A stretch of 60,837 nt of DNA, filler included, from Stramenopiles sp. TOSAG23-6 (lineage: Eukaryota): assembly GCA_900128565.1 (NCBI GenBank). It is 3 parts of 3 records of this genome, joined end to end, with 100 filler letters (N's around TTAATTAATTAA, not from the genome) between each part and the next. Parts side by side here need not be neighbours in the genome. Positions count along the whole stretch, not along the records: positions 20,586 to 40,775 come from LT636040.1; 2 more parts are not named here. One strand, given 5' to 3'. The notes below the pieces were generated by a model. That model was given only the letters and a program-made list of their open reading frames with translations, was not told the DNA's origin and ran no database searches. Below, piece by piece: positions 14,601 through 60,613 of this stretch. The translations under genes and the position numbers were made by a program. The stretch's first letter is position 1; each line of letters starts with the position of its first letter.

Positions 14601-17567
14601 CATATGCTTTCCAGTCACCAAGGCCTGTACTTACCTTGAGTTTTTTATTCGTTTCTCGAATCAGAAAGTGTATCCTTTTCCCCCCTTTGCGAATGAATCC
14701 ATATCGTTGTAATAAATACACATCATATTCGTCATTAAACTCTGTGACAGTTGCTGGTTTATTGCCATGTTGAAAAAGAGGTTCTAATGACCACTCATCT
14801 AATATTTCTTGTGTCAGTCTCAAATTAGTTTTCATTTTGTGAACAACGTCATTGCACTCAGATGTTTGATCCATACTTTGTGAGATAAAGTCATCTATAG
14901 CAGCACTCTTCCAATTTAAAGTCACTAGACCGGCTTCTAATTCCCGATCTACCTTTGAAAGTGCTGCTGCAACAAGGGGTCTCTCTACTGGGAGCAATGT
15001 CTTCTGCATCATATTATACATGTTAGCAACAAGTTGCAAATTACTAGTTTGTCGGCGAAATATTTCGGCTTTTTGGTGTATTTGCATGGCAGCAGATGGT
15101 ACGCTAAGTCCTAGTAAGAGAAAATACTTAATTTCACGAAGTATTTCAACTAAAGCAGGATCAAAGTTTACAAACAAATTTTTCAAATTGCGTTTAACCC
15201 CGTTCCCCCCGTGGCCATATATGGAATCAGTATCTACGTCATCATCGTCACAAACATAATCTCCCCATCTAAGAAGAGTATTTTTCAACATTTTCTGTGA
15301 AGACGATGCTACATTTGTGCCCCAATTTGCAAGACATTTATTCTCAAACTCTGATATGGAAGCAACTAAATTAGAATACAACTTCACAAGATTTAGCGCT
15401 TCATCTCGATCTAAAAGCTTCCCTCGCAATTGCCGTAATTGTGTCATAGGTCGCTCTATTCTATTTAACAATCCTTTTGACCATGCAAGTGCCCCAGCAA
15501 TCGGTGGATAATTATTTTCCACTGGAGGGGAGAGACGTTTATCAAAGAAGATTGTATTAACTAAACGCAAATCTGCATGGTATGAGTTAAGTAGCTCAAT
15601 ATAATTTGTCTCCATTTCTGTTTCAATTACAGGTCGACTCAAAAGCATAGAAAAACATTGCAACAGTTTAAACTTACTCATAATTGTATTTGTATCTTCG
15701 AACGACTTAGTCAACACACAACCAAGACGTTGCTCTAACTCCTTTACAGTCGTGCGGAATATGTAGAATGTATCATCGAAGGAACCACCATCAACATTAA
15801 GTAAGTCGGACGAAGCGACAGCTGAACTTGATTGCTCTCCAGATTTTGTACTATTTATTTCTGATTGATTATCATTATTCGCTTGTTCAGAATCATTTGT
15901 GTTACGTCCGAAGAAAGCAGATACACTTGATTGGAAATCGAGGTATATTTGATGAACTGATGTGGATAAAGTGTTTCCTCTAGAACCACCAATTTGAATC
16001 TCAGCCAATTCACTAAATTGAGCAACCGCCTGTACCAAATCTAGGACGTCATGGCATCTTTCCAAGAAGTCATCAAGACGCGTGAATAAAGCAGAATTGT
16101 TCATGATCCATGGATTCCGTGGACATTCGACCATTGATCGCGCCTTATAAGCAAAATAATCCGATTTAAATGTTCCGCAAATTTTGATTGTTTTTTTAAT
16201 ATCATCAATAGCTTTATGTTCCATTCGATTCTCTAACATATCAAATAGATTTGTGACATCTAGGAATATAGTAGCTTTTTCAATAATCATGTTACATATT
16301 TGTTTCACTATGACAACCATACGAGGAGGAGTATTGTAACATCGTGAATTCTTCCATATTAAAAGTAAAACGTGAACAACAGGTCTAAAATATGATGATA
16401 ACTCAGAAAAGTTGGATGTTTCCATTATACTAAACCATTTCTTTAGTGGTGACAAAAATCTAGCATTATCATTTGCTTCGGCACGAGATTTAAACACAGA
16501 CTTACAAAGTTTGGCAAATGATGAGTTGTAAGTACTCTTTGCATCATCCATGAAACGTAGAACTTTACGTATTCGGCTACTTTGTAACTGAACAAATATG
16601 GAATTTAAGTTTACAGCTTTATCTCGCCAAAAGTATAATTCAGTGAGTGGGCCAGGATGTGGATTATCTAAATCATTAAATGCATCTTCAGGATCTAAAG
16701 AAACATGTATTGCGGATATATATATAGATTTATATAAACGTTAGGTACGGAATTTGCTGCAAAAAGAATAAATTTGAAATATATGATGAAAACGTACAAC
16801 AATTTGCATTAATTTTGTCCATCGAATGACACATCCTTCAACTAAGTGTAGCATTTCTTTTTTGTCCATTCCCTTCAATTTTTTCGGAGGTTCTTTTGAT
16901 AGTAAAAATCCTGAGTTAGATATGTTTTCATTATATGTATTAGAATTGGTTGAATTTTTATGAGATGGACTTGATTTATTTTGATCCATGTCATTCTTTT
17001 TTTGTATGTAGTTCTAGCTGTCACATCTCCTTGTACAGCATCTAGTTGCGGTGGAAGTGGAAGACGAGTTTCCCCCAAAGTTCGACCAACAGTGACTTGT
17101 AAATCACCAGCAAACTTATGTGTATCTTCCATTACATTTTTGGCAATCATACTTGACCATTCTTCTTGATTTGCGGTGTTTTGTAGTAAAGGTACGAAAA
17201 TTTCTTGAACTTGTAAATCTAAGAATTGAAGTGTGTCCATGTTTTGAACGTCTCCATATAATACGAAGTTCTCCATATCCTTTAGCGTCGATACTTCTTC
17301 ACCCAAAATTTTATAGAATAACATAACTTTACCTCTGAAAAATGTACTTACTGTATCAATGACCTTTAGGTGACCTTTGCCGTCATAATCCACAATTTGG
17401 ATAAAACGCTGCTCTGCGTCGTCTAAGAAAGATGTCATGCGGGACTGAAAAGAATCGTTCTTTATAAAAGAAATGAATTTTTCATCGCGCATATACTTGA
17501 AAGTGTGCCGCATACGCATCGCCATCCAAGCAACTCTTTCATCTCCAGGATAATCTGGAAATGACAT
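2674..17567 (-). CDS. Axonemal dynein heavy chain, outer-arm beta-like; segments 17567-~16998 (frame break), ~16997-16798, 16704-2674
   Basis: P-loops GPAGTGKT, GPPGSGKT, GVSGTGKT, GVGGSGKQ; RLVITPLTDRCY, WGCFDEFNRI, coiled-coil stalk. The N-terminal tail VIRWTK..DPE..PGPLTELYFW is restored by removing 16705-16797. Confidence 0.95.
16705..16797 (-). mobile_element. Introner-like GT-AT intron, 93 nt (dynein)
   Basis: ATT GTT|GTACGTTTTCATCAT...TTCCGTACCTAAC...GCAATACAT|GTT TCT TTA GAT CCT GAA; the next AG is 10 nt downstream and out of frame. Confidence 0.85.
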
Positions 17568-18756: not shown

Positions 18757-20430
18757 TTAACCAAGACATTTATCAATATCCGCAGAAATTTTAGTAGATT
18801 GAGATTTTTTTTCTTCTCTTTGGGAGTAAAAATTATTGAAATCCAACCTAAACGCTAAACTCAGAAGATTTCCTTGGCCAGCAGAAAATTTTACCTCTGT
18901 ACGAAGTGACGTTAGCAGAGCTTGCATTGATGCCAAATATTCTTTAGAAATTGTTTTCAATTGAATTCCTGTAGATTTCACACGCCCACGCAATGATTGT
19001 AAGGCATTCATTGATGCTTCATCTTCTGCATCTGTGGTTCCCCATCCACCCTTCGACTGTTTCATGCGAGATCGTTGACGTGCTCGCATTATATATTGGG
19101 TGGTAGAGCTTACGCTAGTAAACAACTGATCTTCAACAAAACAAAATCGTAGAATTAGAGCAAATATTGTTTCAAAAATTTGTCTAGCTCCATCACCTTG
19201 CGTATTCAGTAATAATCTTGAAATTACCCGATTTAAGTAGATATCATGCGAATCAATGACAACATCTAGATTATCCGCCTCTTCAACTTTCACCATTAGA
19301 TCTCTGCAAGGTCCTTCTAATACCTCATGCATAATATAGGAGTGTAAATTGCTGACAAAATGAATCATTTGAGCCTTGAGCAGTCGGCAACGATGTAATA
19401 CTTTACCAATTGTAATTTGCTTAGTTATACCATCTTCTAAAGCATTCACAGTTTTCATTATCGCTGAGTGACGTTTGAAATTACATGAAAGTCTAAAATC
19501 AACCCTACGTAGCTTCCAGAGCCAATGAAAAATTGTAAGATACCTTGACATACGTATTGTGAAAAAATATTTCAAATAAAAAAACTAAAATTTGTTAGGT
19601 ACAAAATTTCGTACGAAAAAAAACAAATTCGAAATTAAAATGAAAACGTACACAATCTTGAGTAATGACTGTCGATAAAGGAGATGTTATTCGATAATGT
19701 AACGAAAATGTATCCCAACCAGTGTCACCTGGTGAAGGTGTTAAAAGATGGACGTCCAAAAGATCAAGTAATGTGGAGAAATATCTGGTACAGTTTGCAA
19801 TTTGTTAGACACAAAATGTAAAACAAAAAAAATAAAAAAAAATTAGATAAAACCCTAACTCTAATTAATGATAAAAACATACAAGAATATCAGGATCTTC
19901 AAATTGTGCATTAGACGAACGAATTGCAGCTTCAAGTTTAGATCCCAATGTATGCGCATAAAGTTGTGATGCTCTTCTTCTCAAGTCAGTTTCAATTAAA
20001 TCAATCAGACATTGAATAAAATCGCCTTGTCCCATATATTGTGAAAAAATATTTTTTTTTTGTAAAAAAAATTGTTAGGTACAAAATTTACTATGAAAAA
20101 AATTCATAAAGCATAATGAAAACGTACATGAGAAGGTACTTCTTTAATGCTAATATATGGTCTTTTAGTTTATACTGATCAAGAAATACTCTAACGAGTT
20201 TTTTATTGACTTTTTCTGAAGTTCGACAAATTGCATCTCTTAGATAAGGTAATTGATCAAATCCAAAAGTAGATTCTGAATCATTTAAAGAAGTACTATG
20301 AAGATTTTTCACATCTGTAGAATTATTCTCATAAAATATAATTTTTGCATTTTCTTGGAGAAATTTGTCAAGCTCATCGTCATTTTCAGAACACACTCTT
20401 AAAAAGTTTATGCTTTTTCCTAGGGTTAAT
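18757..20430 (-). CDS. TUBGCP3: Gamma-tubulin complex component 3 (GCP3/Spc98), 3' part; exons 20430-20128, 20033-19883, 19765-19652, 19551-18757
   Basis: Spliced translation gives GKSINFLR, ALKKYLLMGQGDFIQ, AIRSSNAQFEDPDILDLLDV, PGDTGWDTFSL, CMSRYLTIFHWLW, MIHFVSNLHSYIMHEVLE, LAFRLDFNNFY. Confidence 0.9.
19552..19651 (-). mobile_element. Introner-like intron ending in GT, 100 nt (GCP3)
   Basis: GAT TGT|GTACGTTTTCAT...TTCGTACGAAATTTTGTACCTAAC...CACAATACGT|ATG TCA AGG TAT. Confidence 0.85.
19766..19882 (-). mobile_element. Introner-like intron ending in TT, 117 nt, diverged (GCP3)
   Basis: ATT CTT|GTATGTTTTTATCAT...TTTTGTGTCTAAC...CCACATTACTT|GAT CTT TTG; the internal CAG 19 nt upstream is out of frame. 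Confidence 0.75.
20034..20127 (-). mobile_element. Introner-like GT-AT intron, 94 nt (GCP3)
   Basis: CTT CTC AT|GTACGTTTTCAT...TTTTGTACCTAAC...CACAATATAT|G GGA CAA GGC GAT restores YLLMGQGDF. Confidence 0.9.
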
Positions 20431-22537: not shown

Positions 22538-22772
22538 ATTTCGTATAACCTACTTCTCATAATCAAAATGGTATAGGGAATATATTAAAAAATACAAAAT
22601 AGATAGTATTATTTTATTATTTTGTTAACTTGTGTTTCTTAATATTTTACGTCCTTATGTCTGTTCAAACTTCAAATACATTCATTTTCAAAGAAAAGTC
22701 CCATCGAAAGAGTTTTAAAAAACGGCAAACTTCTTTTTATTTTTTTTTCAAATATTTAATTTTAATAACATT

Positions 22773-24431
22773 TTAACGTCTCAAGTGATGCTCACCTTGT
22801 TCATATAAGGTCTTCAAAACATATGCTTCACCCAACAATTCCTCAATATCATCTATTGTCCAATTATCAGTAGGAATATCTTGAAGAAATGTTAACATTG
22901 ATTGGAACTCTAATTCTAGAAGATGTTTAGACCAACGCTTCAAAAAAGCAGCACAAAGAAATACATGGAATGATCGGAAGCCATTTTCTTCAGAAATGCA
23001 AGCGTCCCAAAGACGTATTATATGTGGCAAAGATAATTCTCGAAGTAAAAGACAATTCATCCAACGAAATGCAAATTGCATGTAATCGATTCCACATTTT
23101 TCAAAATGTGCATTTAACTTTGGGTCAATACGACACATTAGTTCTTTCAATTTGTATACCATTTTTTGTAATCCAGGTTGAGCAAATGTATAGTGATCTT
23201 GTATTCCATCAATTAACTTAGTTAAGCACCAAAATGTATCAGCTTCTACTTCCGTACAACAATCCTTACCTAAACTCTCAACATCACAACATAAAGGATT
23301 TTCAGAATCTTTTAAACGTTGTGCGAGAAATGCTACAATAAATGGAGTAGCCAGATCATTAATACCTTGTACATAACCACTAGCAGGATGTCGCAGTGCC
23401 CATATATATAAAACACGTTCAAGCAAACGGCGAATAATCGGTTGGTGAAATAATGGCACATTTGGTCTAGTTCGAGGCACATCTACTAAAATTTGACGAA
23501 GAATTTGTTGTTCATGTTTTGTTCTTCTTTCTCCGGGTGTTTTGTAATATTTTCGTACAAATTCTGCATATTCTTTTCGTTTTCGATCAATTGTTGCTTC
23601 ACGTCGTCGTCGGTTATATGGAAGGTACCCCAATAACATTTGCCATGACATTGCACGATATTTTTGTGGACAGCCATTCCAAGTTTGTTTTTGAAGTATT
23701 TTTATATCAACATTGTCTGCAGAAAAAAGTTTCTCGAATTTTTCGTATTTGTATTCTTTTTGACTAAAATTTAATTTTTCGCGTTTTGTTTGATCAGCAA
23801 CGTCAGCTGAAATAGCCAAGGCTGTCACACTAGAGCTTGGTGAATCTGATACATCATTTAGAGAACTAGAACGTGGAGTATTACTCACTGAAGTAGCTGG
23901 GCGAATAGATGATTCCGAGGTTGACGCACTTTTCAATATCACTGGTCTTGGAAATGTATCTGGATTTGAATTACTAGGCTCCGCGGCAACCACTCTGACA
24001 CCAGGACTACTACTCTCAGTACCAGTTTTAACAATCTTGGAAGTAGGACTTGCCCCCCTTCTTGGCGGAAACGCTGCACCTCGATACTTAACAACACCTG
24101 GTGTAGCTGTACCTTTACCCCTACCAAATCGAGAAAAGAAACCAGAACCGAGTCGTGTTTTACTAGCACTTCCCTTTCTAGGTATCGTATTCTTTGGTGT
24201 TTGTGAAGGGGACGTTGGCAATTCAAATGGATTATCCATTTTGGATTTTGGTTGTGCTACTGCCGAATCCGACGTTGATGTATTCATCGGTCTTTGTTCA
24301 ATTTCTACGTTTGCTTCTGTTGCAGTCGAAGTATCCATAGCTTTAATGTTTTCCGGTTCATCAACATCACCAATTACAACACTACGAACTCTCTTAAAAG
24401 CATTCATAAAGAAACCATCTCCTTTTGACAT
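22773..24431 (-). CDS. TBC1D22: TBC-domain Rab GTPase-activating protein, TBC1D22/Gyp1 type
   Basis: RQILVDVPRT, RHPASGYVQGINDL, EADTFWC, IQDHYTFAQPG, MQFAFRWMNCLLLRE. Start placed at MSKGD (24431); an upstream ATG at 24464 is possible. Confidence 0.9.
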   Translation of the reverse strand: MSKGDGFFMNAFKRVRSVVIGDVDEPENIKAMDTSTATEANVEIEQRPMNTSTSDSAVAQPKSKMDNPFELPTSPSQTPKNTIPRKGSASKTRLGSGFFSRFGRGKGTATPGVVKYRGAAFPPRRGASPTSKIVKTGTESSSPGVRVVAAEPSNSNPDTFPRPVILKSASTSESSIRPATSVSNTPRSSSLNDVSDSPSSSVTALAISADVADQTKREKLNFSQKEYKYEKFEKLFSADNVDIKILQKQTWNGCPQKYRAMSWQMLLGYLPYNRRRREATIDRKRKEYAEFVRKYYKTPGERRTKHEQQILRQILVDVPRTRPNVPLFHQPIIRRLLERVLYIWALRHPASGYVQGINDLATPFIVAFLAQRLKDSENPLCCDVESLGKDCCTEVEADTFWCLTKLIDGIQDHYTFAQPGLQKMVYKLKELMCRIDPKLNAHFEKCGIDYMQFAFRWMNCLLLRELSLPHIIRLWDACISEENGFRSFHVFLCAAFLKRWSKHLLELEFQSMLTFLQDIPTDNWTIDDIEELLGEAYVLKTLYEQGEHHLRR

Positions 24432-24823
24432 TTCAAAGAATGAACAATAGTAGACTATATACAACCTATAGACGCAATTTTCTTTCTAACCATACCTCGT
24501 TATTTATTTTTATCAACTGTTGCTATACTCTAAGGGGTAACCTCGATTCCGAGTCGATTTTTTTCTTCTTTTTTCCAAACTTCGTCAAACAAACAACAAC
24601 AAAACGCAAAAGATAAAAAAAAAAAGAAAAAAAAAAGACTAACCCTAACCCTAGCGCTAGCTGCCCAATCATCTTCTAAAATTAAAATAAATTGGATGAC
24701 TTGACTTGACTGGCTACTAAATATTTCTGTGTACACCTCCAAAGTTCTACCTTTCTTCCACAATAATCTTAACAAAACAACCTCTTTTATACTTTTCTCC
24801 TCGTGGTGCGCTTCAAGATACCG

Positions 24824-27015
24824 ATGATTCCGACATCCACTCAAGTTGACGAGAGTGTGATTTTAAATCGGAGCGTTGACAAAGTATGGTGTCTTGTTCG
24901 AAAATTAGATTTTGCTACGTTATTTCCTGGTTTGGTATCAAAAAGCGTTAGAAACAATGACAAGGTCAACTCAAATGTTATCGTAACTTTTGTTGACGGA
25001 ACAATCTGGGAAATTCGTATGACAGGCATGAATGATTTATCACATAGTGTAAGTTGGGAGCTAGTTTCTGCGAATCCACCCACGTCATATTTGTCCCGTG
25101 TTGATACTATCTCTGTGCAACGCGTTACTGCGAAGTCATTGGAGTCTTCTTTTCTCAAGTGGTCGACGACGTTCTCGTCTGATTCAGGCGTATCTGTTAT
25201 ACAAGATTGCAAGCTAAAGAAACGCGAAGCCCTACAAAAGCTGCGTTTACTTTTTAGTTGTGATATGCAATTATCAAATATTGATTTGATGGATGGTGCT
25301 GCGTGCGGCTTTGACATTGTTATTGTCTGCACTTCTAATACTGACATGGAAAACTTCTGGCAACTTCGTTTAAACCTTGCACGCGGAAGTATTATTCCAA
25401 TTAATACTATTGTTGTAGTAGTAACCGAGGATTGGGATGGTGGTGCAGGAAATGGACTAGGAACTTTGTATGCATTTCAAAAAGCTGTGAAAAAAGCTGA
25501 AACTGTAAATGGAGTAAATCTCAATACCTTATTGAGTGAAGGCGCTTCTGCAGCTTTGTACCACACTGCTGGCAAAGGTACCCGTCTCGCCCCTCTTCCT
25601 GGTAGTGAATGTAACAATAAACCTGCAGTAAAACTTCCTGGTCTTGTGCGTTTACAGGGAGTTACTACTAATATACCTACTAAAACCCCGGTCACAATAT
25701 TAGAGTCTGTTATTCGACAAACGGGAGTATGTATGTTTTGATTTTTTTTCAATTTCGAATTTATTTTTCGTACGAAATTTCGTACCTAACGCTTTTAATG
25801 TTTGAAATATTTTTTCATAATCCATATTCTACATCAAGACCTGGCAGACTTTCTGTATTTTGGGGTGATCAATTATTTATTCCATCAGTTAAAATGGATT
25901 ATACTCCAGTTCATCATGCAGATATTTTGTGTATGTTGGGACCAATGCCAAGTGCTAATGAGTGGAAATCTCGTGGTCTCTCTGCTTTTGGTCTGATTGC
26001 AGTCAATTCCAATGGCGATGTACAATTTCATGATGAATTTCAAATTCAAGTTTTTTTTTCGTACGAAATTCCGTACCTAACGATTTTTTTCATAAAATAT
26101 TTTTTCACAATACATGCAGCTCAAGTAGAAAAAGTAGATTATCGTACTGCAACAAACTTATTACAAAATATGGGAAAAGTTGTTTCTGTTGGTACCAGTC
26201 TTGGATCCTTTTCTGTATCGTTTGCGTTATTAAATGAGTTAATGATGGAATTTAAGAAGGAATTATCTACAAAAATTGGTAAATTAGATTCTGATCCTCA
26301 TTGGTGGATGCCTCTAACACTTCCACGCAGTGGTTATATAACGTTGATGCAACGAAAAGGAATGTCTAATGCTGGTGAACATTGGGACAGAATTGCAGTA
26401 ATGAAAAAACGTTTCATGAATAAAGAATTATTGAGTAATTCTCAACACTTTGGATTGTTTGGTGCGGTAGACGTTGGCTCTGAACCATTTTGGTGGGATT
26501 ATGGACAGCTGCATAGCTACATGAGTAATAACATAAAACTCACACAATGCAGTATTGAGTCAGATGCTATGAAAAAGTTTTTTGGTGTTGATAGTAGTGT
26601 AGGTGGTTCTGTTGAACTTATCTCGTCAAAATCTAAGGGCTTATCTCTCAACTCAGTTGTTGTGGACTCTACAGTAGGTAACTTAAATGTTGAAAATTGC
26701 GTTTTATTCAACGTCTCAGCAACTTCATTGCGAGGTAAAAATTGTCTTGTATATAATCTGTACGATTCTTCACTCGAAGGGCTTGATCTTCCAGATGGTA
26801 CCGTATTGTGTGACATTCCTATTCCAAATGAAAAGAGGTTTATACGTATGCAAAGTACGATAAGTGTCAATGCTGGAACAATTTGGAAGGAAATTGTTCA
26901 CGACAATGAAAAGTCTTTTGAAGAGATCTATTTGACAAATAACAATGTGTCTTTAGCAGATGCCGAAAAATTATGTGAAATAAAACGCAAGGCTATAAGG
27001 GCAAAGTTGATGTAA
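24824..27015 (+). CDS. Bet v1/polyketide-cyclase-like domain fused to a nucleotidyltransferase-like domain; exons 24824-25730, 25826-26019, 26116-27015
   Basis: N-terminal ~145 aa SRPBCC-like pattern (ESVILNRSVDKVW...WELVSANPP...FLKWSTTFSSD), then GAGNGLGTLYAF, HTAGKGTRLAPL..NNKP, spliced QTGVYSTSRPGRLSVFWGDQ and GDAAQVEKV. Confidence 0.7.
25731..25825 (+). mobile_element. Introner-like GT-AT intron, 95 nt
   Basis: GGA GTA T|GTATGTTTTG...TTTCGTACGAAATTTCGTACCTAAC...CATAATCCAT|AT TCT ACA; joins ORFs 24803 and 25729 in frame. Confidence 0.88.
26020..26115 (+). mobile_element. Introner-like GT-AT intron, 96 nt, in frame and stop-free
   Basis: GGC GAT|GTACAATTTCATGATG...TTCGTACGAAATTCCGTACCTAAC...CACAATACAT|GCA GCT CAA. 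Confidence 0.85.
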
Positions 27016-27155
27016 AAATACTGTACTTTATAGTACATAGTAGAAATATTTTTAAGGTTGAAAAAACAGTTGCCGCGATTTAACTTGAATAAAAGCATTT
27101 TATTTTTTATACTCTACCAAAACATACTTGAAGTCATATATCATACACTAAAGAA

Positions 27156-27761
27156 CTAGATGGCCTCAAAATCAAACGCACAATCAACTGCGTCATCATT
27201 ACCATCACCTGGAATACCATTCAGTTCACCAATCTTAGCTGAGTCAGGAAGCTCACCATACAATTTGAGGTTACGTGCCTCATCAGCGGAATATTTCTGA
27301 ATTACATCTGCTTTTGAATCTTGAAATTCACGAAGCCCAATAAGTATAATATCACCAACTCCTACCCAAACACGCTTTCTCATTTTACCTCTGATGTGAC
27401 ACAAACGTTTCTTTCCGTCAAAGCAATAAGCTTCAAGACGACCATTTCCAAGCATTTTCAATACTTGTGCGTATTCTGTAATAAGTGAAGGTAAATTTCA
27501 AAAATATAGGTTAGCATATAAAGAAAGGGTAAATGACGTTTCATTAAAGAAGATGAGATGAAATTTAAAGAATATTTCATCCAAAATTCATGTGAAAGTA
27601 CAAACAAAAAAATTTGGACAGTACTGATGGAAGAAGGACTAGATGTGTATATGTGACGTACCTTGACCGTGTTCTTTGAATTCTAATTCACGCCTTTCAT
27701 CCTCGTTTTCATTCTTTCCACGACGTCTGTTCTTACCGCCTTTTCCTTTGTTTTTTGGCAT
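27156..27761 (-). CDS. EIF1A: Translation initiation factor eIF1A; exons 27761-27662, 27475-27156
   Basis: [53 protein letters not shown]; canonical GTACGT...TTACAG intron at 27476-27661. Confidence 0.97.
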
Positions 27762-28099
27762 TGTGGGTGGGAAAAGTAATAATAAAATTAGTCGCAGACA
27801 ACACAAGCGCACCAATACACAGAGGTGAATCAAGACGATCAAGTCAGAGTCTCAGAGACTGACCGGTTTCGCAAATTTGTGACACGTGGCATTACAAAGG
27901 AAAAAGGTCAACTACTACAAATAGCAAAAAGAGGTGATCAGGACTGAGGAGGTAGTATATTCTAACAAATTGAAATTTTGAGATTCATTGAATTTTATCG
28001 AAAAGAGTCAACAACTCGCTTTTCAGTGAGCATTGTGAGAAACTACTCATCAAAAGATCAAAAACTACAACGCATTTTCCACGCTGAGAACAAAAAAGT

Positions 28100-29150
28100 A
28101 TGACAGAACTTCAAGATATTTCAACTGTACGATCTGAAGGCAATGTTGCTTTCAAGGGTGGTGAATATGCAAAGGCGCTAACGAAGTATACAAAAGCGCT
28201 TGAACTTGCTACCAACGACAAATTATTTGAAGACAGACACAAATTATTAAGCAACCGAGCTGCTACCCATATGAAATTGAGGCAATACAATGAAGCTTTA
28301 GCGGATGCAACAGCAGCAGTATTAGAAAAGCCTACATGGGTAAAAGCATACCATAGAAAAGCACTCGCCTACTTAGCTTTGGAAGAACCAGGAAATGCTC
28401 GCGAAGTGTATCTCGAATTTCAGAGATTAGCAGGAGATTCTGAAAATATATTTGTTAAAAAACAGTTGCAAAAGCTTCAAGATAAAGTGCCAATACAATC
28501 CGTAGATGAATTTCTCGACCTATTCAAGTCAATTCGTTCAGAGACACGTCTTCGATTATTTACATTAGCCTCTTTCTGGAATCGCTCAAAGCGTCATGAG
28601 CGTTTAGCTATATTAAAAAGAATTATGACTTTAATCGGTGGAGAGAGTGGACCATCACCAGCTGTGGAAAAATTTCGTTCGGAGGAAATGAATCGTATGT
28701 TTTATATGAATTTCTAATTTAATTGTTTTTTCATACGAAATTTCGTACCTAACGATTTTTTTTGAAATATTTTTTCACAATACATGTCTTCCTCTTGAAA
28801 TTTATAAAGACTTGACCTTGCCCTCAACTTGGTTAAAATGGTATCAGTTATGCACGAAATCTGAAAAGGTGACTATATTGGATATGATATGGCGTGAGTG
28901 TACTGCCGAAGAGCACAATTTCATCATTGTTGATCTCCAGGCATTTTTTAGTGTAACAGGGTCTACAAAAAAATCAGTTGTTCAAAGGAAAAACATGAAA
29001 TTGAAAAATCCAAAAGTTCTTTCAAAAAAAGAAGTTATCGTGCCATGCAGCAACCCTAACCCTAATCCAAAAGTTCTTTCAAAAAAAGAAGTTATCGTGC
29101 CATGCAGCAACCCTAAGGAGAAATCTAATAAAATTAACTCAAATAGATGA
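28100..29150 (+). CDS. TPR-repeat protein; exons 28100-28694, 28786-29150
   Basis: Three TPR motifs (EGNVAFKGGEYAKALTKYTKAL, LLSNRAATHMKL, WVKAYHRKALA); removing 28695-28785 joins the two ORFs in frame. Confidence 0.8.
28695..28785 (+). mobile_element. Introner-like GT-AT intron, 91 nt (TPR gene)
   Basis: AAT C|GTATGTTTTATATG...TTCATACGAAATTTCGTACCTAAC...CACAATACAT|GT CTT CCT. Confidence 0.85.
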
Positions 29151-29360
29151 TTGGAAGGGTTACAAAGAAATTTTAATTTGAGTTTTAATTTGAGTTTTGT
29201 GTAAGTTGAATAATTTTATAACAGTTTTCAACATAAAAACAAAGAAAATATTCCTGATAATTTTGTGTTGAAGCTCTCAAACGAAACAGATGATGCTGTA
29301 GTCTGTAATAGCGGAACTTCAAATAAATTTATAGTAAAGTAGCTATATATAGTATTGTTT

Positions 29361-34112: not shown

Positions 34113-35867
34113 ATGTCTTCTGAAGTTCAAACTCCAATCTGCTCGAATACTTCTTGTCTCCACCAGTTGGTACTTCGAGATAACAATTCAAAAGTTGAAC
34201 CAAAGATCATTCATCTTCATAGTAGTGGGAAAAGTTCATTTAAAGTAAGTTATTGTTTTCATACAAATAATCATTTTTCTCCTTCATTCTTGTTTATCTT
34301 AAACTTTTTTTTATCTTCATTTGTTGTTACTTCGATTACACTTCGTTTCTGTACCTATTTTTTCAGATAATTTGTGTAACTTAACGAAGCAAGTAATTTT
34401 AAAAAAATTCATTCAATACAGCTTGGAAGGAGTCGGTCTTCAGCTGATGTTGTCTTTAGTTCTAAAGGAGGTCCCCTAATGATTTCTAGAGTTCACGCAA
34501 TACTTTCTCGGTCTAAAGCATCTGAAAAGATTTCCGAGAATAATACTTTAATTGGCAATAGTATCAACAGTTTAAATAGTAAATCATCACTGGAAGTTTC
34601 TAAGAGTACTGTATGGTGGAAGATTGAAGATAATAATAGTAGAAATGGTATGTTTGTCAACTCTATTAAGTTAGCTGAGGCGACTCTGTCTCATGGAGAC
34701 ATAGTGACTTTTGGTGGGGGAGGCACTCTCCCTTACGGTACCCATAAAAACAACATTGAATCTGATTATCAGTATGTATTTTTAAAAGTTTGCTCTAATC
34801 AAGATGAAGATAATATATCAACAAACGAATATAAGGAAAAGAATAGCAAGAAAAATATGTTTCAAAGAAATTCTTTCCCGACAACGGGCTCTTCAAGTCG
34901 TCGGAAGCGGCCACTTACTGAAAAGATTGATCTTTCCTCGAAGCGTCCTAGACTTGATACATCATGCATTGTTTCAAATACGATGAATATACATAAAAAA
35001 CATGAAATACCAATAACGAAGGAAGGTGATAACGCGATAGCTACAGGGATTTGCGGGGATGGAGTCTCACTAAATTCACAGAAAAATGTTGATTTATCAA
35101 CTAAAAGCACTGCATTAGTTCCTTTTTCTTCTGTGCTTCCCCAAGGTACTGTCAAAGTTAATTGTTTGCAAGAAGAATTGACGTGCCCGATATGTTTGGA
35201 TTATTTACTTCAAGCTCACACCCTAGGATGTGGTCATTCACTATGTATGCTTTCAAAATTGAATTTCAAATTTTTCAAATTTATTTATTTTCGTACCAAA
35301 TTTTGTACCTAACATTATTTTTTGGAAATATTTTTCCACAATATATGTGCTCCGTGTATTGTAAAAACGCTTGAAAACAAACGAGCTTGTCCTTGTTGTC
35401 GTGCACCAACAACCAAGCCACCTATACGTTCACGTGTTCTAGATAATGCAATTAACAAATTATTGAAACAAGAAGGATGCGAGTCAAAATATTCTGAGTA
35501 CCTACACCGATTAAAAAAATGGGAAAAAGATATCAGTTTGAGAAAAGCCCAAGCAAAACAATTGAAAAGAGTTATATGTAACGCAAAGCGAGAAGGAAAG
35601 CATTTCCTCTGTATCACTGATAAATGGACAAGTAATGAACAACAAGTTTTTCAAAAAGGTGTTGCTCTTTATCATGGTGTTGCTCGAGTTGTATACTGCA
35701 ACACCACAAGTTTGACAGCAGAGTATATAGAAAGTGCTTCAAAAGAAGAATTAAAGCTCGCTAGTTTAAATGTCGGTGTGGTAAATAAGAAATCAGTATC
35801 AACCTTAGATGCATCAACAATGCGATCATTGTTACACATGTTCAGATTATATGGTGGCCGTGAATAA
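34113..35867 (+). CDS. FHA + RING E3 ubiquitin ligase (RNF8/CHFR-like); exons 34113-34244, 34422-35244, 35347-35867
   Basis: FHA motifs LGRS..ISRVHA..SRNGMFVN; RING CPIC..CGHSLC|APC..CPCCR. Intron 34245-34421 is canonical GTAAGT...AATACAG. Confidence 0.88.
35245..35346 (+). mobile_element. Introner-like GT-AT intron, 102 nt, splitting a RING cysteine codon
   Basis: TCA CTA T|GTATGCTTTC...TTTCGTACCAAATTTTGTACCTAAC...CACAATATAT|GT GCT CCG TGT; contains an in-frame TAA. Confidence 0.92.
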
Positions 35868-40960: not shown

Positions 40961-42625
40961 ATACCTGCGCCATCAGGATCTCGAATTGCATTTAGTACTC
41001 TAAGTTTCTTACACGATGCTACAAATTTTTCTGATAATTTCATAGAATCTATTGCTCTGCCACAAAATGATTTCCCATATGTAGCGGCCCGTAAAAGACA
41101 TTTTTGATCAGACACACAAAATTCTGATAATGCCGCCATAGTACATGTCTCCACAGCATGAGGCAAGGAACCATTTGCTTTGATATCTCTTATATTATCG
41201 TCCGCTTTAGCATCTGTAGCTAAAAAAGCATTCATTGCGTCATAAAGCAAGGCACCAGGAAAAATTGAACCAATTTTTCGCACATCTTCCAACGGTGCAG
41301 GTAATCTCTGTAAAATACTTAATTTTAAGTTAGATATAATACGAACACAATCAACTTCTTGAATAAGATGTAATGGTATACCATTAGGGCTAGGATTCTG
41401 ATTCGGTGATTCTTTTTGTAGTGTTTTAGAAGGCAACGCTACGCTGTCAAGACTTAATTGAGAATATTTATTAGAATATTTTAACCAATCTCCAAAGGGT
41501 CCAACCATTAATATCCCTAACTCAGGCCAATGTATTTTGGAAAAATATTTCAAAAAAAAAATAATAATTTTTGTTAGGTACAAAATTTCGTACGAAAACA
41601 AAATTCATACAAAAAAAAAAAAAACATACATGCAATACGACGGAATCTTCCCCACACCATATTATTGGAAAAATATGTGAAATTCGAAATTTGTTAGGTG
41701 TAACAAAACATAAGATTACGAACAACAATAATACCTACAAAAATAATGATGAACACGTACAAGCAACTTGCGAAGGACGCCGAGTTGATTTTGTATTAAA
41801 ATCTAAAACTTTTTTTTTAAATGAAGTTGACAGTACAGATAATACACCTTGAGCTGTAAAACATGCGACGAAACGACCATTCGGTGCAACTACCATGTCT
41901 ACAATAGGTGCAGAAAGTTTAGCATGAAGCTTCTGATCCTCTATCTTACCATCAGAAGTCACAACAATTATAGAACATTCAGTAGTTGCAACAAAGATTT
42001 CAGTGCCTCCTCCAGTAAATTGTTCCTCTAATACAGAAATTGCCGTCGGCATCTCGCCACCCAGCATATGTTGAAGTGAGTGCACTGGGTCCGCATTATC
42101 ACTAAGAAAAATAGGAAGTGGACTTTTAAAGTTATCAATGAGGACTAGTCGTAAATCTGCAGTAAGTGCAACTATGCCAGTACCCCAAATTTTAGCCTCT
42201 ACTATCGTGAGGCCAGATGAATTGTTCATTTCAAATAAAGAGAAAGTTAATAAACGCTCGCCGTAAATACTATATAATTCTACTAAACCGTCTTCTAATA
42301 CAACAACCAGTTGTTCTTGTGAAGTCCAACCCAATTTTACCACTACTTCATTTTTTTCCCAAGGAACCTTNGATATTTGTTTCCCAGCAGAAGTATATAT
42401 ACGTAAGAAATTATTATCTGTCCCAAATTTTTTTAAAGGTATAAACTTAGTTTTATCGGGTAGGAGAGCAACAGGTCCTCCAAACGGAGATCCAACCACA
42501 CGAAAATCATCAATATTGATTCCTTCATCTTGCCACAACATATCATACACATCAAATTTCCGGTATTGAACCTCTTCAGCTCCCTCACCCAGACACCTCC
42601 AATGAGACACATCTGAGTAAGACAT
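40961..42625 (-). CDS. VPS16: VPS16 (HOPS/CORVET subunit), 5' part; exons 42625-41761, 41658-41630, 41529-40961
   Basis: YRKFDVYDMLW, PFGGPVAL, IYTSAG, APNGRFVA, spliced RPSQVAWCGEDSVVLHWPELGILMVGPFG, EVDCVRI, QKCLLRAATYGKSF, KLRVLNAIR. Confidence 0.93.
41530..41629 (-). mobile_element. Introner-like GT-AT intron, 100 nt (VPS16)
   Basis: TTG CAT|GTATGTTTTT...TTTCGTACGAAATTTTGTACCTAAC...CCAAAATACAT|TGG CCT GAG. An in-frame AG 9 nt downstream would delete the conserved Trp. Confidence 0.85.
41659..41760 (-). mobile_element. Introner-like GT-AT intron, 102 nt, diverged (VPS16)
   Basis: GTT GCT T|GTACGTGTTCATCAT...TTACACCTAAC...CCAATAATAT|GG TGT GGG restores AWCG. Confidence 0.85.
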
Positions 42626-42928
42626 ATCGATCAGCTAATAGAAAGGTCCCTGGCAATTATTTATCTAATTAGAAGAGATATTTTTCATTCGAGATATTGA
42701 TTTGTGGTACGAGACGACCCTGTCAAATTTCCAAATGCCATTAAATTTTTGACTGCCTCAAGTTTTTTTTTTGTATTTTACGATCCGTATCCTTTTATTC
42801 TTAAGTACGGAATTTGGTACGAATTTTGTAGAGACGATCTGTGCCCATATCGATATTGATTCGTCAAATTTCAAAGATCTTACATTTTATTAAAGTTCCC
42901 CCCTTGCAATTGCATTTGTTTCAAACCG

Positions 42929-45063: not shown

Positions 45064-48000
45064 ATGACAAGTAAAAATACTCTAAAACATTCTCAAGAAG
45101 AAGAAAAAGAAGAAAAAGAGGATATACAACTGCCCTATACTGTCGTCCACCAGTGTTTTTTCCCCGGCACAGCAGATTGGATTGATCAGTTTCTTGTCAT
45201 TGCAACATATGGCCATGATTCAAGCCAGCTAATGTTAGCTCTATTCGATCATCAGTCAGACTGGACTGAAGGAGTTATAGGTGCAATAACGTTAAAGAGG
45301 CGACTCTGTCATATATTTCGTATCACGCCGTTCTCATCTATTCGCTTTGTGAAGGACATGAGAAAATGTCTTGAATTTTCATCTGTTGACATTAAGGGTG
45401 TTCATAGACATGTAAGACTGAAGTCAACTGCAGAGACAGTGCTCCATGATACTCTGCGCGTGATAGATACAGCAATTCACATGACAATTAAATTTGAAAA
45501 CAAAAGAAATAAATTTTTAAAAGATTCGACAAATTGGATGCCGAATTTAACATATAAATCTGTTTTAGATGCTGATGAAGACAAAGAAGTCATATCTTAT
45601 CGCAAACTAGCAAAAGATTCGCCAATTTTCTATCATGATACTTTTTTTCATTTAGACGAAGGAACACAAAAACTGAGCCGATATATATATGTTTTATTTT
45701 TTTTCAAATTCGATTTTTTTCGTACGAAATTTCGTACCTAACGATTTTTTTTTGAAATATTTTTCCAAAATACATGAATATACCAGGAATGTGTTGCAAA
45801 TTAATATTTAATACTTTTCTTATCTTACTTTATATGTATCTTGCTATAGATTATTTTTCCCCAGTTATTTATGGTATTCACGCCGAATTTGCCTTGGCAA
45901 CGGCAACGTTTCTTAATGAAGCTTTTGGCGATATCCCAAAACTACATGATACTCAGAAGCATTCATCGCATCCACAAGAACAAAACTGGCCCCATGAAAC
46001 ACTTGAAATTCATACGATTGAAGATTTTTGGTATGATTTTGTCTGTACGTTTTCATTGTGTTTTTTTTTTTGTACCAAATTTTGTACCAAATTTTGTACC
46101 TAACATTTTTTTTAACCAAAAAAAAAAAATATATGATTCCACAATATATATTCGAGCTTTTACAAGCACACATTCTGGGCCGATATTGGCGAATATCCGT
46201 ATAGTGGGATGACTCGAAAGCAATTTTCGGATTTAATTCACTCTGTTGATTATCACAGCTTTTTTGCTTTCAACAATAAGCTTGTTGGTCGGGTTTTACT
46301 ACAACAACACAGACGACCATTAAAAGAGTGCCATCTTAAAATTGCTAGAAGATCACAATATGTACATTTTCATAATGAATTTCAAATTAATTTTTTTTTC
46401 ATAGTAAATTTCGTACCTAACAAAAAAATCAAATGTGTGACATATTTTTTCACAATACATGAAACTTGTCTAGAAAATGTAGATGATACAAGCCCTTATG
46501 GTAAAAATTTGAAATCTGCAGGAACATATTCAGAATATTTGAATTATGCCTATATGAACACAGCTTTCACGTTTACACACGCTGCAGAAGAAACCGATTC
46601 GTCTTTTTTTTATTGGTTCACACATTTATTTCTTTCAAGCCATTCTCATGGCTATATGATTGCACTCAATGTGACTGATTCCAATGCCGTGACTGGTAAT
46701 TATATACATGATGTAAAGCTAAAACATGGTAGTGCAAAAGTTCCATTGTTAGAGCAGTTACAATACTTGGAAGAAAATTTATGGGTCGATATTCAAACAT
46801 CTTTGATTACTATTAAGATGCCATTTAGAAATATTAATACAGGCATCACATCATACCTTGAAGTCATATTTGAATGGGATGAAGCAGGAAACTTGCACCC
46901 CATTATTAATGTAGCGCCATTTGTTGATCATGGACATGCAGAAAATCTGCAATTTTTTGCATGGACTCTATGCTGTATTATGATAACAATCAAATTCATT
47001 TGTATTTTATATTTTGAAATTCCTCGTGCATTCAATGCTAGTTTTAATTCACGCTATACACCAGGGGGGAGAATGAAAAATAAGGAGCCAGTAGTATTGG
47101 GTTCTCTAAGCATATTGATTTCTTTAATATATACCATGATTGTTATTTTATGTCTCTTTTTTTTACGAAGAAATTATGTAACAAACGACACACTATTACC
47201 TTTTAGTGATGCATATGAATGTAAATCCTTAGATCAAATTTGTGGTGATCCTCATAAAGTTGATAAGAATATATTCACGCATACCAGTGGTTCGAATTCA
47301 TATACACAAGTACATGTTGACTTAGAGGGACACGCAAGGACACAAAAAATTCAGTTTACAATGTTTGCAGTAGGTATTAGCATGTCATGTATATACATAA
47401 TGTTGTATGTGTATAAGATATTCGGGGCGTTTTTACTATTGTGGACTTTAGCACAGGCAAAATGGTTTTTTTTAATTGCATTGTGTATGATTGGTGTTGC
47501 ATTTGTGCCTATTAAAATATATACTGCAGAGTATGGAAAGCATTTACTATTTGAAGAACCTAGTTTTCATTCAGTAGGAATATTAGCAGATGGATTAGTG
47601 ACTAATGTTTCAGAGTTCACGGAACTTCATCCTGGAGATCCGATGAACTACATTATGATATATGCATTAGTTGTACTTACTATTGGAAGATTTTTAATCT
47701 TTGCGATAATGTATCGATCATATAGGCTGGCATCACGTAAAGCTAGTGAAATATCTACTACGCATTGGTATGCAGAAGACGAAAATGGGAAATATTCAAC
47801 GCTAATAGCTCTGAGAACATGTTTAGTTACACTGTTTTACTTTCCTCTCTTGAAACAAATTTTAGTACATCTAGTCCATGACCCGACTCTCAATATGAGT
47901 CAGTATATCAGCTATAGTCAACTAAAAAATATTGTTTTTGATTACGCAAGTGAGTGGTCACCAATATCATCATCATGTGGGATATTAAATCTTCAATTAT

Positions 48001-51012: not shown

Positions 51013-51422
51013 CTAAAATGTAAATCTAATACCAGTACAACAAGAGTGTCTCGTCCCTAACTTGAATACTTTTTCAATTGTACGTACAAGGTTTATACAC
51101 ACTCGTTGTTCAACGTATCATCGTCGTACCATGCGCCCGGATTTTGGTACGAAATTTCGTACCTAAACCTTGGCTTGGCTTGCGCTTGAGTATACCTGCA
51201 AAAAATTGCGATGAATTCATGAACTCGAATGAACTTCGTCCCGCTAGAAGTGAAAACACTCATATTATTCGTATAGAAGTGTCATTGTTCTATAGCTGGA
51301 CAAAGTTATTGTTATATACTTTATTCAGAGTTCTTTTTGTATTGTTCATTTGAGGAGTAGTATCCTATTATTTGTTAATAATAGAATTAGCTTTAGAAAT
51401 TTAAAACAATCTTTTTGGAATC

Positions 51423-58086: not shown

Positions 58087-60512
58087 ATGAACAATACTAG
58101 TATAATTTCACCAAATTGGTGTCCTGGATTATGGCCGGAACAGAAGGTTATGTATCTTTGTTGCTGTCTCCCACTCAATAGCTTCTTTACTTTTGCTGAA
58201 GTTAATGGCATGAAGCGAAAGGTTGCACTTCAACTTCGTGTTGATCTTCTTCGGAGATGTCCGAATGTTTCTTCAATGATATCAGCAGAGGGTGCTCAAC
58301 GTGTTTTACATAGTGAGTTCTACGAGAAGGTTTCTTTGTTGTTGTCGTCACTATTAAAAGTTGACAACCTCAAAACATTTGGACCTTCAAAGATTTCCAT
58401 GTGTCTCGCACTTGAACTCGTTATGAAATACTCCGTCAATGTCAAGGGTGAAATCATTGAAAAGGATATAGATTTTTCACAAAATATATTCTCTATGATA
58501 TTTTGCGATTCAAATATCCTACTTGAAGCTACTTCCGAAAAAGACCGAAACATTAGAACAATTAGAAAACTTCATTGCTTATTCCTAGGTACTAGTAGAT
58601 CTGATATTGCTCTCATACTTGCTCATACAATGCCATGTATGTTTTTATTCCGAGTTTTCTTTATTGCTTACATTGTAGTATCCTTTTCTGTAGCTAACGA
58701 ATCTCAAATTTGACATTTTTTCACAATACATGCAACATTTTACGTATAATGATACGATATTTTTGTCGTGATGAGGTCAGTGTAAGTGATGACGTACATA
58801 TTTCTTCCAAATTTGCATCTATTCAAATCGACGATTCTGTTGAAACTGTATGTTCTTTAGAAAGAAAGAGGAAATTTATCGCCGCGGTTCATTTTGGTAC
58901 GGTTCATCTCCGCAAACTGAAATGTGATATATGTACGTTTTCATTATCATTTCAAATTTATTTTTTTTTTCGTACGCAATTTTGTACCTAAGAAATTGAA
59001 TTGTTTTTTTGAGTTTTTATTCGATACGTTTTTCATTATTCATTTCAAATTTATTATTTTTGTACTACATTTTGTACCTAACGAATTTCTTTTATATCAA
59101 AACAGAAATACTTTTTTACAAAACTGCTCGTTTAGAAACTGATGCTATTTCACACATGAAAGATAGTAAGAATGACAGTGCAGATGTTGATATCCGAAGT
59201 CGCCAAAGGAATACTACAAATAAAGCGTTAGAGGTATTAGAAGCATCACGTTCTATAGGAGCAAGTCTTTCAGAAACACTCGCAGGTTTGTTCATGCGAA
59301 ATCCATACCTAATTTTTGTACATAATAGATATAATGTAAATAATGAAAATAATGAAAGTGAATTATATGTCTCTGATACAAATGATACAAAACAGATATC
59401 TGCTTCTCTCAATTTTGAGCAGTCAATTTTATCTGAAAAAAATATAGAAATGTATAAGAAAAAAGAGTGTAAGAAAGACGCAGCGATCATTGCTGTTGAA
59501 CTTTTAAAGTATTCTATTGTATGTATGTTTTATTTTTTTTTTTAACAAAAAAATCGAATTTTTTTTCGTACGAAATTTTGTACCTAATGATTTTTTTTTC
59601 AAATATTTTTCCAAAATACATACTACCAAAATTCTGTATCCCAGGCAATGAAGTCTGGTGGTCGTGTATATCGTGCGTCATATGCGCGCTTAGATTTAAC
59701 TCGGCGAGAACTTTGTCGTTGGGTCAAAGAGAATCTCCCTTCGAAACTTCAGTCAGCTTTGGAACAACTTTCAATTGCATATATTCATGCAGGTTGTCCA
59801 GATGAAGCTGAAGAGGCGAGAGCGCGTGCAATTGATATTGCTAAAATAGAATATGTATGTTTTATATTTTTTTTTTTAACGAAAAAATCGAATTTATTTT
59901 TCGTACGGAAATTTGTACCTAACAATTTTGTTTTATATTTTTTTTGAAATATTTTTCCAAAATACATGAACGGAGTTGTTTAAAAGCTGGCGACTCTGTT
60001 GAAGCCCGAGTCAATTATGATATGTTGTATTACACAGCTATAATAAAGCGACGTTTTTCCGATGGATGTTTTGAACTCCTTTTTGAAGATGATGTAATTG
60101 AAATGACTCCACCTCAATGGGTGAAGCCTTTGGGACGCTCTATCATTTGGGAAGGTGATGAAGTACAGGTATTAAATGGAACATATGCCATGTGCGTTTT
60201 CATCATGAATTTCTAATTTATTTATGTTTTTCATACGAAATTTTGTACCTAACATTTTTTTGATTTTTTTTTTTTTTTGCCATGTGCGTTTTCATCATGA
60301 ATTTTTGAATTTATTTTTTTTGTATGAAATTTTGTACCTACTCTGTCTTTTGTAACATATCTAACGAATTTTGAATTTGAAATATTTTTCTACAAAATAT
60401 GGATGGCCTTCCGAGTCCTGCTAGACTTTTAGTATTTCAATCTTCACCCCAATTATATCAAAGTGCAGTTGTGCTCGATAAAGCAGGAAAGAATCCTATT
60501 TTACCTAGTCAT
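58087..60512 (+). CDS. Multi-exon hypothetical protein with a Tudor/Agenet-like domain; 3' end uncertain
   Basis: ORFs 58045, 58710, 59009, 59648 and 59944 join in frame after removing family inserts; LKAGDSVEARVNYDMLYYTAIIKRRFSDGCFELLFEDD. Confidence 0.55.
58637..58731 (+). mobile_element. Introner-like GT-AT intron, 95 nt
   Basis: CCA T|GTATGTTTTTAT...CTGTAGCTAAC...CACAATACAT|GC AAC. Confidence 0.8.
58933..59126 (+). mobile_element. Tandem dimer of the element; 3' end unresolved
   Basis: ATA T|GTACGTTTTCATTAT...TTTTGTACCTAAG, then ATACGTTTTTCATTAT...TTTTGTACCTAAC...TTTTACAAAACTG. Confidence 0.65.
59523..59621 (+). mobile_element. Introner-like GT-AT intron, 99 nt
   Basis: GTA T|GTATGTTTTAT...TTTCGTACGAAATTTTGTACCTAAT...CCAAAATACAT|AC TAC CAA. 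Confidence 0.85.
59855..59967 (+). mobile_element. Introner-like GT-AT intron, 113 nt
   Basis: GAA TAT|GTATGTTTTAT...TTTCGTACGGAAATTTGTACCTAAC...CCAAAATACAT|GAA CGG. Confidence 0.85.
60192..60400 (+). mobile_element. Tandem dimer of the element (60192-60283 and 60284-60400)
   Basis: GCC AT|GTGCGTTTTCATCATG...CCTAAC...TTTGCCAT|GTGCGTTTTCATCATG...CTAAC...CAAAATAT|G GAT. Confidence 0.75.
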
Positions 60513-60613
60513 GTACGTTTTATTTTTTTTCAAATTCGAATTTTTTTTTATAGTAAATTTTGTACCTAACGATTTTTTTAGAATTTTTTTTGAAATATTT
60601 TTCCAAAATACAT
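60513..60613 (+). mobile_element. Introner-like element, 101 nt; flanking frames do not join
   Basis: AGT CAT|GTACGTTTTAT...TTTTGTACCTAAC...CCAAAATACAT|TAGGT. Confidence 0.8.

What the first reader, a model, noticed from the sequence alone, without database searches (positions are those of the whole stretch)
25766..25790. Conserved internal palindrome fused to the branch-like motif
Seen: the best-conserved part of the family is TTTCGTACGAAA (a perfect 12-nt palindrome) directly followed by TTTYGTACCTAAC, an imperfect second copy of the same 12-mer that ends in the CTAAC branch-like sequence. A second palindrome, AAATATTT, sits about 12-20 nt before the acceptor. Inference: these may be transposase-binding sites or RNA elements that fix the acceptor by position or structure in place of AG.
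Basis: partly seen in the sequence, partly recalled or inferred. Interest (0 to 1): 0.7.

Follow-up and report, generated by a model that had tools for sequence, protein, structure and literature searches.

The report
Branch core of AT-ending mobile introns
The motif is the branch-site core of a short intron copied into thousands of places in a marine protist's genes; these introns appear to end in AT instead of AG, and the one U1 splicing RNA gene found has a changed end that exactly matches their start.

Summary
The motif is real. It is the core of a ~95-110-nt intron family (2,522 exact 25-mer matches in a redundant assembly) in a MAST-3-type stramenopile. This copy is 25731-25825, GT...AT; removing it restores a Tyr kept in 117 of 119 homologues.

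The palindrome is not the best-conserved part: exact in 62 of 187 copies, against 144 for GTACCTAAC. The hairpin next to the branch shows no compensatory change. The branch does not fix the acceptor (31-54 nt away); the AATATTT block does sit at a fixed 19-20 nt.

The last two intron bases copy the last two exon bases (22 of 38 non-AT ends, 2.6 expected), a 2-bp target duplication.

The only U1 snRNA found begins AAACGUACAUG, the exact complement of the family donor CAT|GTACGTTT, including the exonic T. It fits better than standard U1 in 183 of 185 copies.

RNA contigs did not test splicing, and no partner transposase was found. The scan reported this intron family before on other pieces of this genome; look-ups for a U1 note found none.

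The parts
24824..25730 (+). Host gene exon 1 (first ATG of the frame to the donor); weak START-like N-terminal domain, then a protein family widespread in stramenopiles
25729..25730 (+). Left copy of the 2-bp duplication (AT), exonic; pairs with U1 positions 10 and 9
25731..25825 (+). The intron element that holds the finding, 95 nt, GT...AT
25731..25738 (+). Donor GTATGTTT; with the three exon bases before it, it forms an 11-bp duplex with the own U1 5' end
25766..25777 (+). 12-bp palindrome, first half-site of the core; weakly conserved at its C/G positions
25770..25785 (+). 16-bp palindrome centred on AAATTT; predicted 6-bp hairpin, no compensatory change
25782..25790 (+). GTACCTAAC branch box; inferred branch A at 25789, 36 nt before the intron end
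   Evidence: U2
25805..25823 (+). 3' terminal block beginning AAATATTT, at a fixed distance from the end
25824..25825 (+). Right copy of the 2-bp duplication, used as acceptor (CAT in place of CAG)
25826..26019 (+). Host gene exon 2
26020..26115 (+). Second family copy in the same gene, 96 nt, GT...AT, in frame without a stop
26116..27015 (+). Host gene exon 3
16705..16797 (-). Family copy in a dynein heavy chain gene
19552..19651 (-). Family copy with GT duplicated at both ends (GT...GT)
19766..19882 (-). Diverged copy with TT duplicated at both ends (GT...TT)
20034..20127 (-). Family copy
28695..28785 (+). Family copy with no left AT; next exon starts GT
35245..35346 (+). Family copy splitting a RING motif (coordinates counted; frame from the duplicate on C1)
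41530..41629 (-). Family copy
45687..46460 (+). Three copies in one gene: 45687-45775, 46045-46149, 46362-46460
58637..60613 (+). Cluster of copies: 58637-58731, about 58933 onward (compound), 59523-59621, 59855-59967, a tandem pair near 60190-60400, 60513-60613
51146..51163 (.). Stand-alone core (perfect 18-bp palindrome) between divergent RuvBL2-like and SF3B5-like genes, no element ends
42800..42823 (-). Stand-alone core between divergent genes, no element ends

Best explanation
The 25-mer is the core of a non-autonomous mobile DNA of about 100 nt that has become the main intron class of this stramenopile. The element runs GTAY...TAC and inserts with a 2-bp target duplication, mostly AT. 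In the sense strand of a gene the major spliceosome removes the element plus one duplicate, so the mRNA is unchanged. The donor is read by a U1 snRNA whose 5' end has changed at three positions to pair CAT|GTACGTTT. The second half of the core (GTACCTAAC) is the U2 branch site. The acceptor is the duplicated dinucleotide, placed by the fixed 3' block at least 31 nt past the branch, with a preference for YAT. The first half-site, the palindrome of the finding, is inherited element sequence, possibly a DNA-binding site for mobilisation; it decays after insertion and does not steer splicing. Shown from DNA: copy number, sense-only frame rescue, duplication, conservation pattern, U1 complementarity. 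Inferred: splicing itself, branch use, U1 function, mobilisation mechanism.
For: Frame rescue in 105 of 114 motif-anchored copies, against 26 and 28 for 1-nt shifts and 20 antisense. At this copy, registers -2..0 give Tyr304 (117 of 119 homologues); the public AG-forced model loses Tyr, Ser and Arg. A cathepsin copy without duplication gives His only in the GT...AT register (catalytic role of that His is established knowledge). Locus-specific duplication: 22 of 38 non-AT ends, 2.6 expected, maximum 10 in 20,000 permutations; the nearest sequence neighbour usually carries another dinucleotide. U1 pairs 9.5 of 11 positions on average against 7.0 for standard U1, better in 183 of 185, and best at the GT register in 183. 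The same word GTAC is kept 57-90% in the first half-site and 92-100% next to the branch (rows chosen by the branch box, which inflates the second figure). Of mismatched duplicates, 40 keep AT at the acceptor and 7 in the exon. 33 of 179 copies have a YAG between branch and end, 25 of which would shift the frame.
Against: No RNA joint was observed. No autonomous partner; both DDE_Tnp_4 loci examined show no element-like ends. The inverted repeat inside the duplication is only 3-4 bp. At least 105 of 114 copies lie in coding sense DNA although about 24% of the DNA is non-coding, which is high for a DNA transposon. The U1 scores 54.1 bits, below the 69.5 cut-off, with changed SL1 and SL2 loops. 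Nine of 10 hand-picked GT-AG donors fit standard U1 better, so a standard U1 may lie outside the incomplete assembly (8 of 14 proteasome subunits found). Pairs of the 12-mer palindrome co-occur above independence (107 vs 81, 97 vs 70), probably from shared ancestry and homopolymer slippage but not proven so. Some contigs are mis-joined through the element (C1 versus window; CCT6 on L163), and a third of such chimeras would pass the frame filter.
Confidence: 0.75

Rival explanations
1. The palindrome or the 16-bp hairpin is an RNA structure that presents the branch or measures the distance to the acceptor.
For: A 6-bp hairpin abutting the branch is in the centroid fold of this copy. The AAATTT spacer is 92-97% conserved, and the common T variant keeps a G-U pair.
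Against: Pairing equals the independence expectation at all 8 pairs; no two-sided change. The hairpin would hide the bases that pair with U2. Spacing to the acceptor varies by 23 nt.
Confidence: 0.08
2. The family spreads through RNA (reverse splicing, or capture of intron RNA/cDNA at breaks by microhomology) rather than by a cut-and-paste transposase; the palindrome is then a passenger.
For: Strong coding-sense bias, near-absent inverted repeats, no partner found. About seven copies have 3-8 nt of the intron start matching the next exon where it departs from consensus (25 matches vs null mean 14.8, maximum 29).
Against: The 2-bp duplication is target-derived, not inherited, as a staggered DNA cut predicts. 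Stand-alone cores are enriched in non-coding DNA (14 of 19, 4.6 expected) and could be eroded intergenic insertions. Exon lengths between copies peak at 120-160 and 320-400 nt (n=80, no formal null).
Confidence: 0.25
3. The 12-bp-periodic core is a binding site for a host DNA-binding protein, carried by the element, whose second half doubles as branch site.
For: 19 stand-alone cores, some between divergent genes and some as tandem 12-mers, on either strand; 0 hits in 462 kb of shuffled DNA at the same threshold.
Against: Among non-coding cases 7 of 14 are upstream of a start, the share expected by chance (p 0.54). The first half-site decays inside introns.
Confidence: 0.12
4. The introns are removed by the minor (U12) spliceosome or as AT-AC introns.
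For: TACCTAAC resembles the U12 branch consensus (recalled), and the duplication allows an AT...AC reading in many copies.
Against: Donors are GTAYGTTT and match the own U1. The cathepsin and DENN-like copies exclude the -2 register. No U12 snRNA was found (incomplete genome).
Confidence: 0.03

Closest known systems
Introners that carry the donor and take the acceptor from the target duplication (Chrysochromulina, Micromonas IE1; PMC9860276 passages, PMC11282704 parts 1-3 read)
   Same: Multi-copy look-alike introns in unrelated genes; duplication supplies the acceptor; mRNA length unchanged.
   Different: Duplication is 2 bp and mostly AT, so the acceptor is not AG; the element carries a near-invariant branch box; the U1 5' end is changed.
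Non-canonical introns of Fritillaria borealis and F. pellucida (PMC13326754; abstract, one results section and most of the discussion read)
   Same: Genome dominated by transposon-derived non-AG introns; YAY before the donor and at the intron end; 3' AT common (44% and 34%).
   Different: Tunicate donors are non-GT and U1 5' ends are unchanged, with duplicated U2AF and m6A changes. Here donors are GT, U1 is changed in sequence, and U2AF35 was not found (incomplete assembly).
Co-evolved U1 of Entamoeba and Mastigamoeba (10.1101/2022.06.08.495308; passages read)
   Same: U1 5' end complementary to an unusual donor; Mastigamoeba has the same ACGUAC core.
   Different: The passages read describe changes facing intron positions only. 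Here position 9, facing the last exon base, is also changed (C to A) and matches the target duplication of a mobile intron.
Amoebophrya introner elements (PMC7789003; passages read)
   Same: Marine protist with mostly non-canonical, repeated introns and short direct repeats at the borders.
   Different: Those have 8-20 nt terminal inverted repeats, no common splice motif and no detected U1; here donor and branch are strict and U1 is present.

Membership tests
U2-type spliceosomal intron | GT donor complementary to U1 | tested here: met
   GT start in about 95%; variant U1 best in the GT register in 183 of 185
U2-type spliceosomal intron | Branch box able to pair U2 GUAGUA | tested here: met
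   CTAAY in 174 of 187; own U2 standard; duplex predicted
U2-type spliceosomal intron | AG acceptor | tested here: not met
   GT-AT 135, GT-GT 10, GT-TT 9, GT-AG 9 of 187; the end model was trained on family copies
U2-type spliceosomal intron | Removal from mRNA | tested here: inconclusive
   No joint across any element, nor across the control eIF1A intron
U2-type spliceosomal intron | Lariat at the branch A | not testable with these tools
   needs lariat reads
U12-type intron | RTATCCTT donor (consensus recalled) | tested here: not met
   donor GTAYGTTT
U12-type intron | U12 snRNA in the genome | tested here: inconclusive
   0 matches, incomplete assembly
Introner (transposon-derived intron family) | Many sequence-similar introns in unrelated genes | tested here: met
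   nearest-neighbour identity median 84%, at least 90% in 41 of 185
Introner (transposon-derived intron family) | Locus-specific target duplication | tested here: met
   22 of 38 vs 2.6 expected
Introner (transposon-derived intron family) | Terminal inverted repeat of 6 nt or more | tested here: inconclusive
   3-4 bp inside the duplication, 6 bp only if the AT duplicates are counted
Introner (transposon-derived intron family) | Presence/absence between close relatives | not testable with these tools
   no close relative held; one metagenome contig and no viral contig matched
PHIS transposons (Harbinger, Pangu; PMC4482050 passages) | 3-bp duplication and longer inverted repeats (Pangu: ANT, 11-40 bp, starting AG or GG) | tested here: not met
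   own DDE_Tnp_4 loci show no element-like ends
Fritillaria-type non-canonical introns | YAY before the donor and at the end | tested here: met
   AT before the donor in 116 of 187; end C/T-A-T in most copies
Fritillaria-type non-canonical introns | Non-GT donors | tested here: not met
Fritillaria-type non-canonical introns | Duplicated, divergent U2AF | tested here: inconclusive
   one U2AF65-like ORF; U2AF35 not found
Hairpin-defined introns (euglenid, Amoebophrya) | Stable pairing of the two intron ends | tested here: not met
   fold z -0.92 for this copy, median -0.78 over 185

The most novel reading that the evidence does not exclude
A mobile intron and the spliceosome have co-evolved at the RNA level: a U1 snRNA, either the sole one or a paralogue dedicated to this family, was rewritten to read the element's donor and its AT target duplicate. 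Because the acceptor junction (CAT|G, often CAT|GT) is complementary to the same U1 positions 7-11, this U1 may also mark the 3' end in place of U2AF35, which would explain a genome-wide switch from AG to AT. U1 pairing at an acceptor has a recalled precedent in fission yeast that searches did not locate.
Probability: 0.2. Interest if true: 0.92.

Novelty: new variant of a known kind. Interest (0 to 1): 0.72.

Why it matters
The AG acceptor is among the most conserved rules of splicing. Here an abundant marine lineage seems to have replaced it for most introns after invasion by one element, with a matching change in U1 at the base that faces the exon. That would be a second, mechanistically different route beside the tunicates, and a direct system for asking how an acceptor is chosen without AG. 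In practice, gene models that force AG are wrong for this organism (P0001).

Tried and rejected
RNA test: contigs of 4 of 11 listed runs were laid on window 20600-40590. Cover was patchy and no exon-exon joint appeared, not even at the canonical eIF1A intron, so this says nothing about splicing. Element sequence piled up far above exon depth in the non-poly(A) run and not in three poly(A) runs, but contig depth is no copy number, so I do not count it as evidence.

Partner transposase: only PF13359 was searched (5 matches, 2 distinct loci). One is a two-ORF Harbinger-like element whose visible end does not resemble the family; the other shows no matching ends. Other transposase families were not searched.

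Standard U1: not found by model or patterns. U12, U2AF35, U1C and U1-70K were not found either; all inconclusive in a partial assembly. U6, U5 loop 1, the U2 branch region and the Prp8 alpha-finger look standard.

Promoter-motif reading of stand-alone cores: attractive, not supported by the controlled count. One search was confounded by antisense hits and is not used.

Fixed ruler from the branch: rejected (31-54 nt). A rule that the next exon starts GT when the left AT is missing: strong in 114 copies (p 0.0004), weaker in 185 (p 0.015).

No match in viral contigs; one in metagenome contigs.

Literature: searches found no report of GT-AT introns, introners or an altered U1 in MAST-3. The library lacks most subscription papers, and the supplements of PMC9860276 and PMC12130899, which list introner families, were not read and may bear on novelty. 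Papers seen only as passages: PMC12130899, 10.64898/2026.04.17.719054, PMC8624252, PMC4482050.

Full report
Observation. The 25-mer is at 25766-25790 as described. The 12-mer occurs 15 times in the window at up to one mismatch against 0.22 expected, and the 25-mer 2,522 times exactly in the own genome with no hit for the reversed control. That count is inflated by fold-back and duplicate contigs, and the assembly sometimes joins different genes through the repeat. In 849 kb of de-duplicated DNA, partly chosen for holding hits, there were 371 core clusters, one per 2.3 kb. The top protein hit carries a MAST-3-type label and the next hits are other stramenopiles or unnamed.

What it sits in. Each core lies in a 76-130 nt element that starts GTAYGTTTT and ends in a T-rich block and ACAT. 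Removing it rescues a frame of 30 or more codons on both sides in 105 of 114 copies, against 26 and 28 for one-base shifts and 20 for the other strand. At the finding, removal of 25731-25825 gives an ungapped match to homologues with Tyr at a column that is Tyr in 117 of 119; later registers give Cys; the public model that forces AG loses conserved residues. The flanking AT leaves three equivalent registers here. A cathepsin copy without duplication, bridged over two contigs by copy-specific sequence, gives His before the PDB-matched C-terminal segment only in the GT...AT register.

Conservation. To avoid circularity I re-collected copies by their two ends and frame rescue in 651 kb: 187 of 255 candidates passed, and two mis-calls were dropped later (185). 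The 12-mer is exact in 62 of 187, GTACCTAAC in 144, CTAAY in 174, AAATATTT in 134. The word GTAC appears twice in the core: 57-90% conserved in the palindrome, 92-100% beside the branch, the latter inflated somewhat by row selection. The hairpin beside the branch pairs exactly as often as independence predicts and shows no two-sided change in 13 window copies. The inner pairs of the 12-mer co-occur above independence, most simply through shared ancestry. So the palindrome is not the best-conserved part and is not supported as an RNA structure.

The acceptor. Ends are GT-AT in 135 of 187 and GT-AG in 9. Branch to end is 31-54 nt, so the branch is no fixed ruler, but AATATTT starts 19-20 nt from the end in 134 of 135 copies. 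In 33 of 179 copies a YAG lies between branch and end, mostly 10-13 nt after the branch; using it would shift the frame in 25, and 8 stay ambiguous. A few canonical introns with a clear branch box also have it 36-38 nt before AG. The last two intron bases repeat the last two exon bases in a locus-specific way: 22 of 38 non-AT ends against 2.6 expected, and sister copies usually carry another dinucleotide. Where the duplicates differ, the intron keeps AT 40 times and the exon 7 times, which suggests the acceptor is read by sequence as well as position; chimeric joins and synonymous exon changes may contribute.

The spliceosome. U5, U2, U1 and U4 genes lie head to tail on one contig. U2, U5 loop 1, U6 and the Prp8 alpha-finger look standard. 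U1 begins AAACGUACAUG where the model has AUACUUACCUG. This is the exact complement of CAT|GTACGTTT. It pairs 9.5 of 11 positions on average against 7.0, is better in 183 of 185 copies, and is best at the GT register; this copy forms an 11-bp duplex. Against this: the gene scores below the Rfam cut-off, and 9 of 10 hand-picked GT-AG donors, mostly AG|GTAAGT in housekeeping genes, fit standard U1 better. No standard U1, U12, U2AF35, U1C or U1-70K was found, but only 8 of 14 proteasome subunits were, so these blanks are inconclusive.

Mobility. The 2-bp duplication points to a staggered DNA cut. The inverted repeat is minimal and the two DDE_Tnp_4 loci do not share the ends. The strong coding-sense bias and a handful of longer junction repeats keep an RNA or repair route alive. 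The core also stands alone in 19 places, 14 non-coding against 4.6 expected but not biased to gene starts.

RNA. The single read-laying run gave patchy cover and no joint even at the control intron. Splicing remains inferred.

Comparison and verdict. It works like a donor-carrying introner with a target-derived acceptor and converges on the tunicate YAY/AT pattern; the changed U1 recalls Entamoeba and Mastigamoeba but extends to the exon-facing base. Searches found no report for this lineage. Earlier scan notes on other pieces of this genome describe the GT-AT family and also doubt the hairpin; look-ups for U1 returned nothing. New variant of a known kind; interest 0.72, carried by the non-AG system and the U1 match, not by the palindrome.

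Noticed in passing
L053:9-645 (G000:C1146): U5, U2, U1 and U4 snRNA genes head to tail with 2-23 nt spacers, possibly one transcription unit; U1 loops for U1-70K and U1A are diverged.
   Followed up: partly
window 51146-51163 and 42800-42823; also L067, L068, L076, L102, L149, C28: Stand-alone cores without element ends, some as tandem 12-mers or 27-mers, in non-coding DNA.
   Followed up: partly
L061 about 1050-1100 (G000:C2432): A two-ORF Harbinger-like element holds a shortened ~50-nt version of the intron element between its convergent genes.
   Followed up: partly
L085 (Prp8), region matching human 1439-1450: A short stretch differs strongly from human in an otherwise near-identical region.
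   Followed up: no
L092 and window 56816-56903 minus: A subtype ending TTTTTTCATAATAG appears to use an AG two bases earlier than the usual family end.
   Followed up: partly
L012 (C1 17482-17678); window about 58933-59120 and 60190-60400: Head-to-tail or nested copies with no exon between, possibly twin introns or assembly artefacts.
   Followed up: no
window 27475-27660 minus (eIF1A); L123, L157, L163, L164, L174: Canonical GT-AG introns persist in housekeeping genes, mostly with AG|GTAAGT donors; several conserved genes checked (EF2 region, CCT2, Prp8 region) show no family copy.
   Followed up: partly
window 20486-20585 and 40776-40875; G000 C1, C2, C4, C13/C14, L163: The window is three contigs joined by spacers; contigs break at the core, some are fold-backs, and some join different genes through the element.
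   Followed up: yes
window 24824-25125: The host gene has a weak START/polyketide-cyclase-like domain in front of the conserved domain; most homologues are shorter.
   Followed up: no
L114:664-2628 minus: U2AF65-like ORF whose second RRM resembles the first.
   Followed up: no
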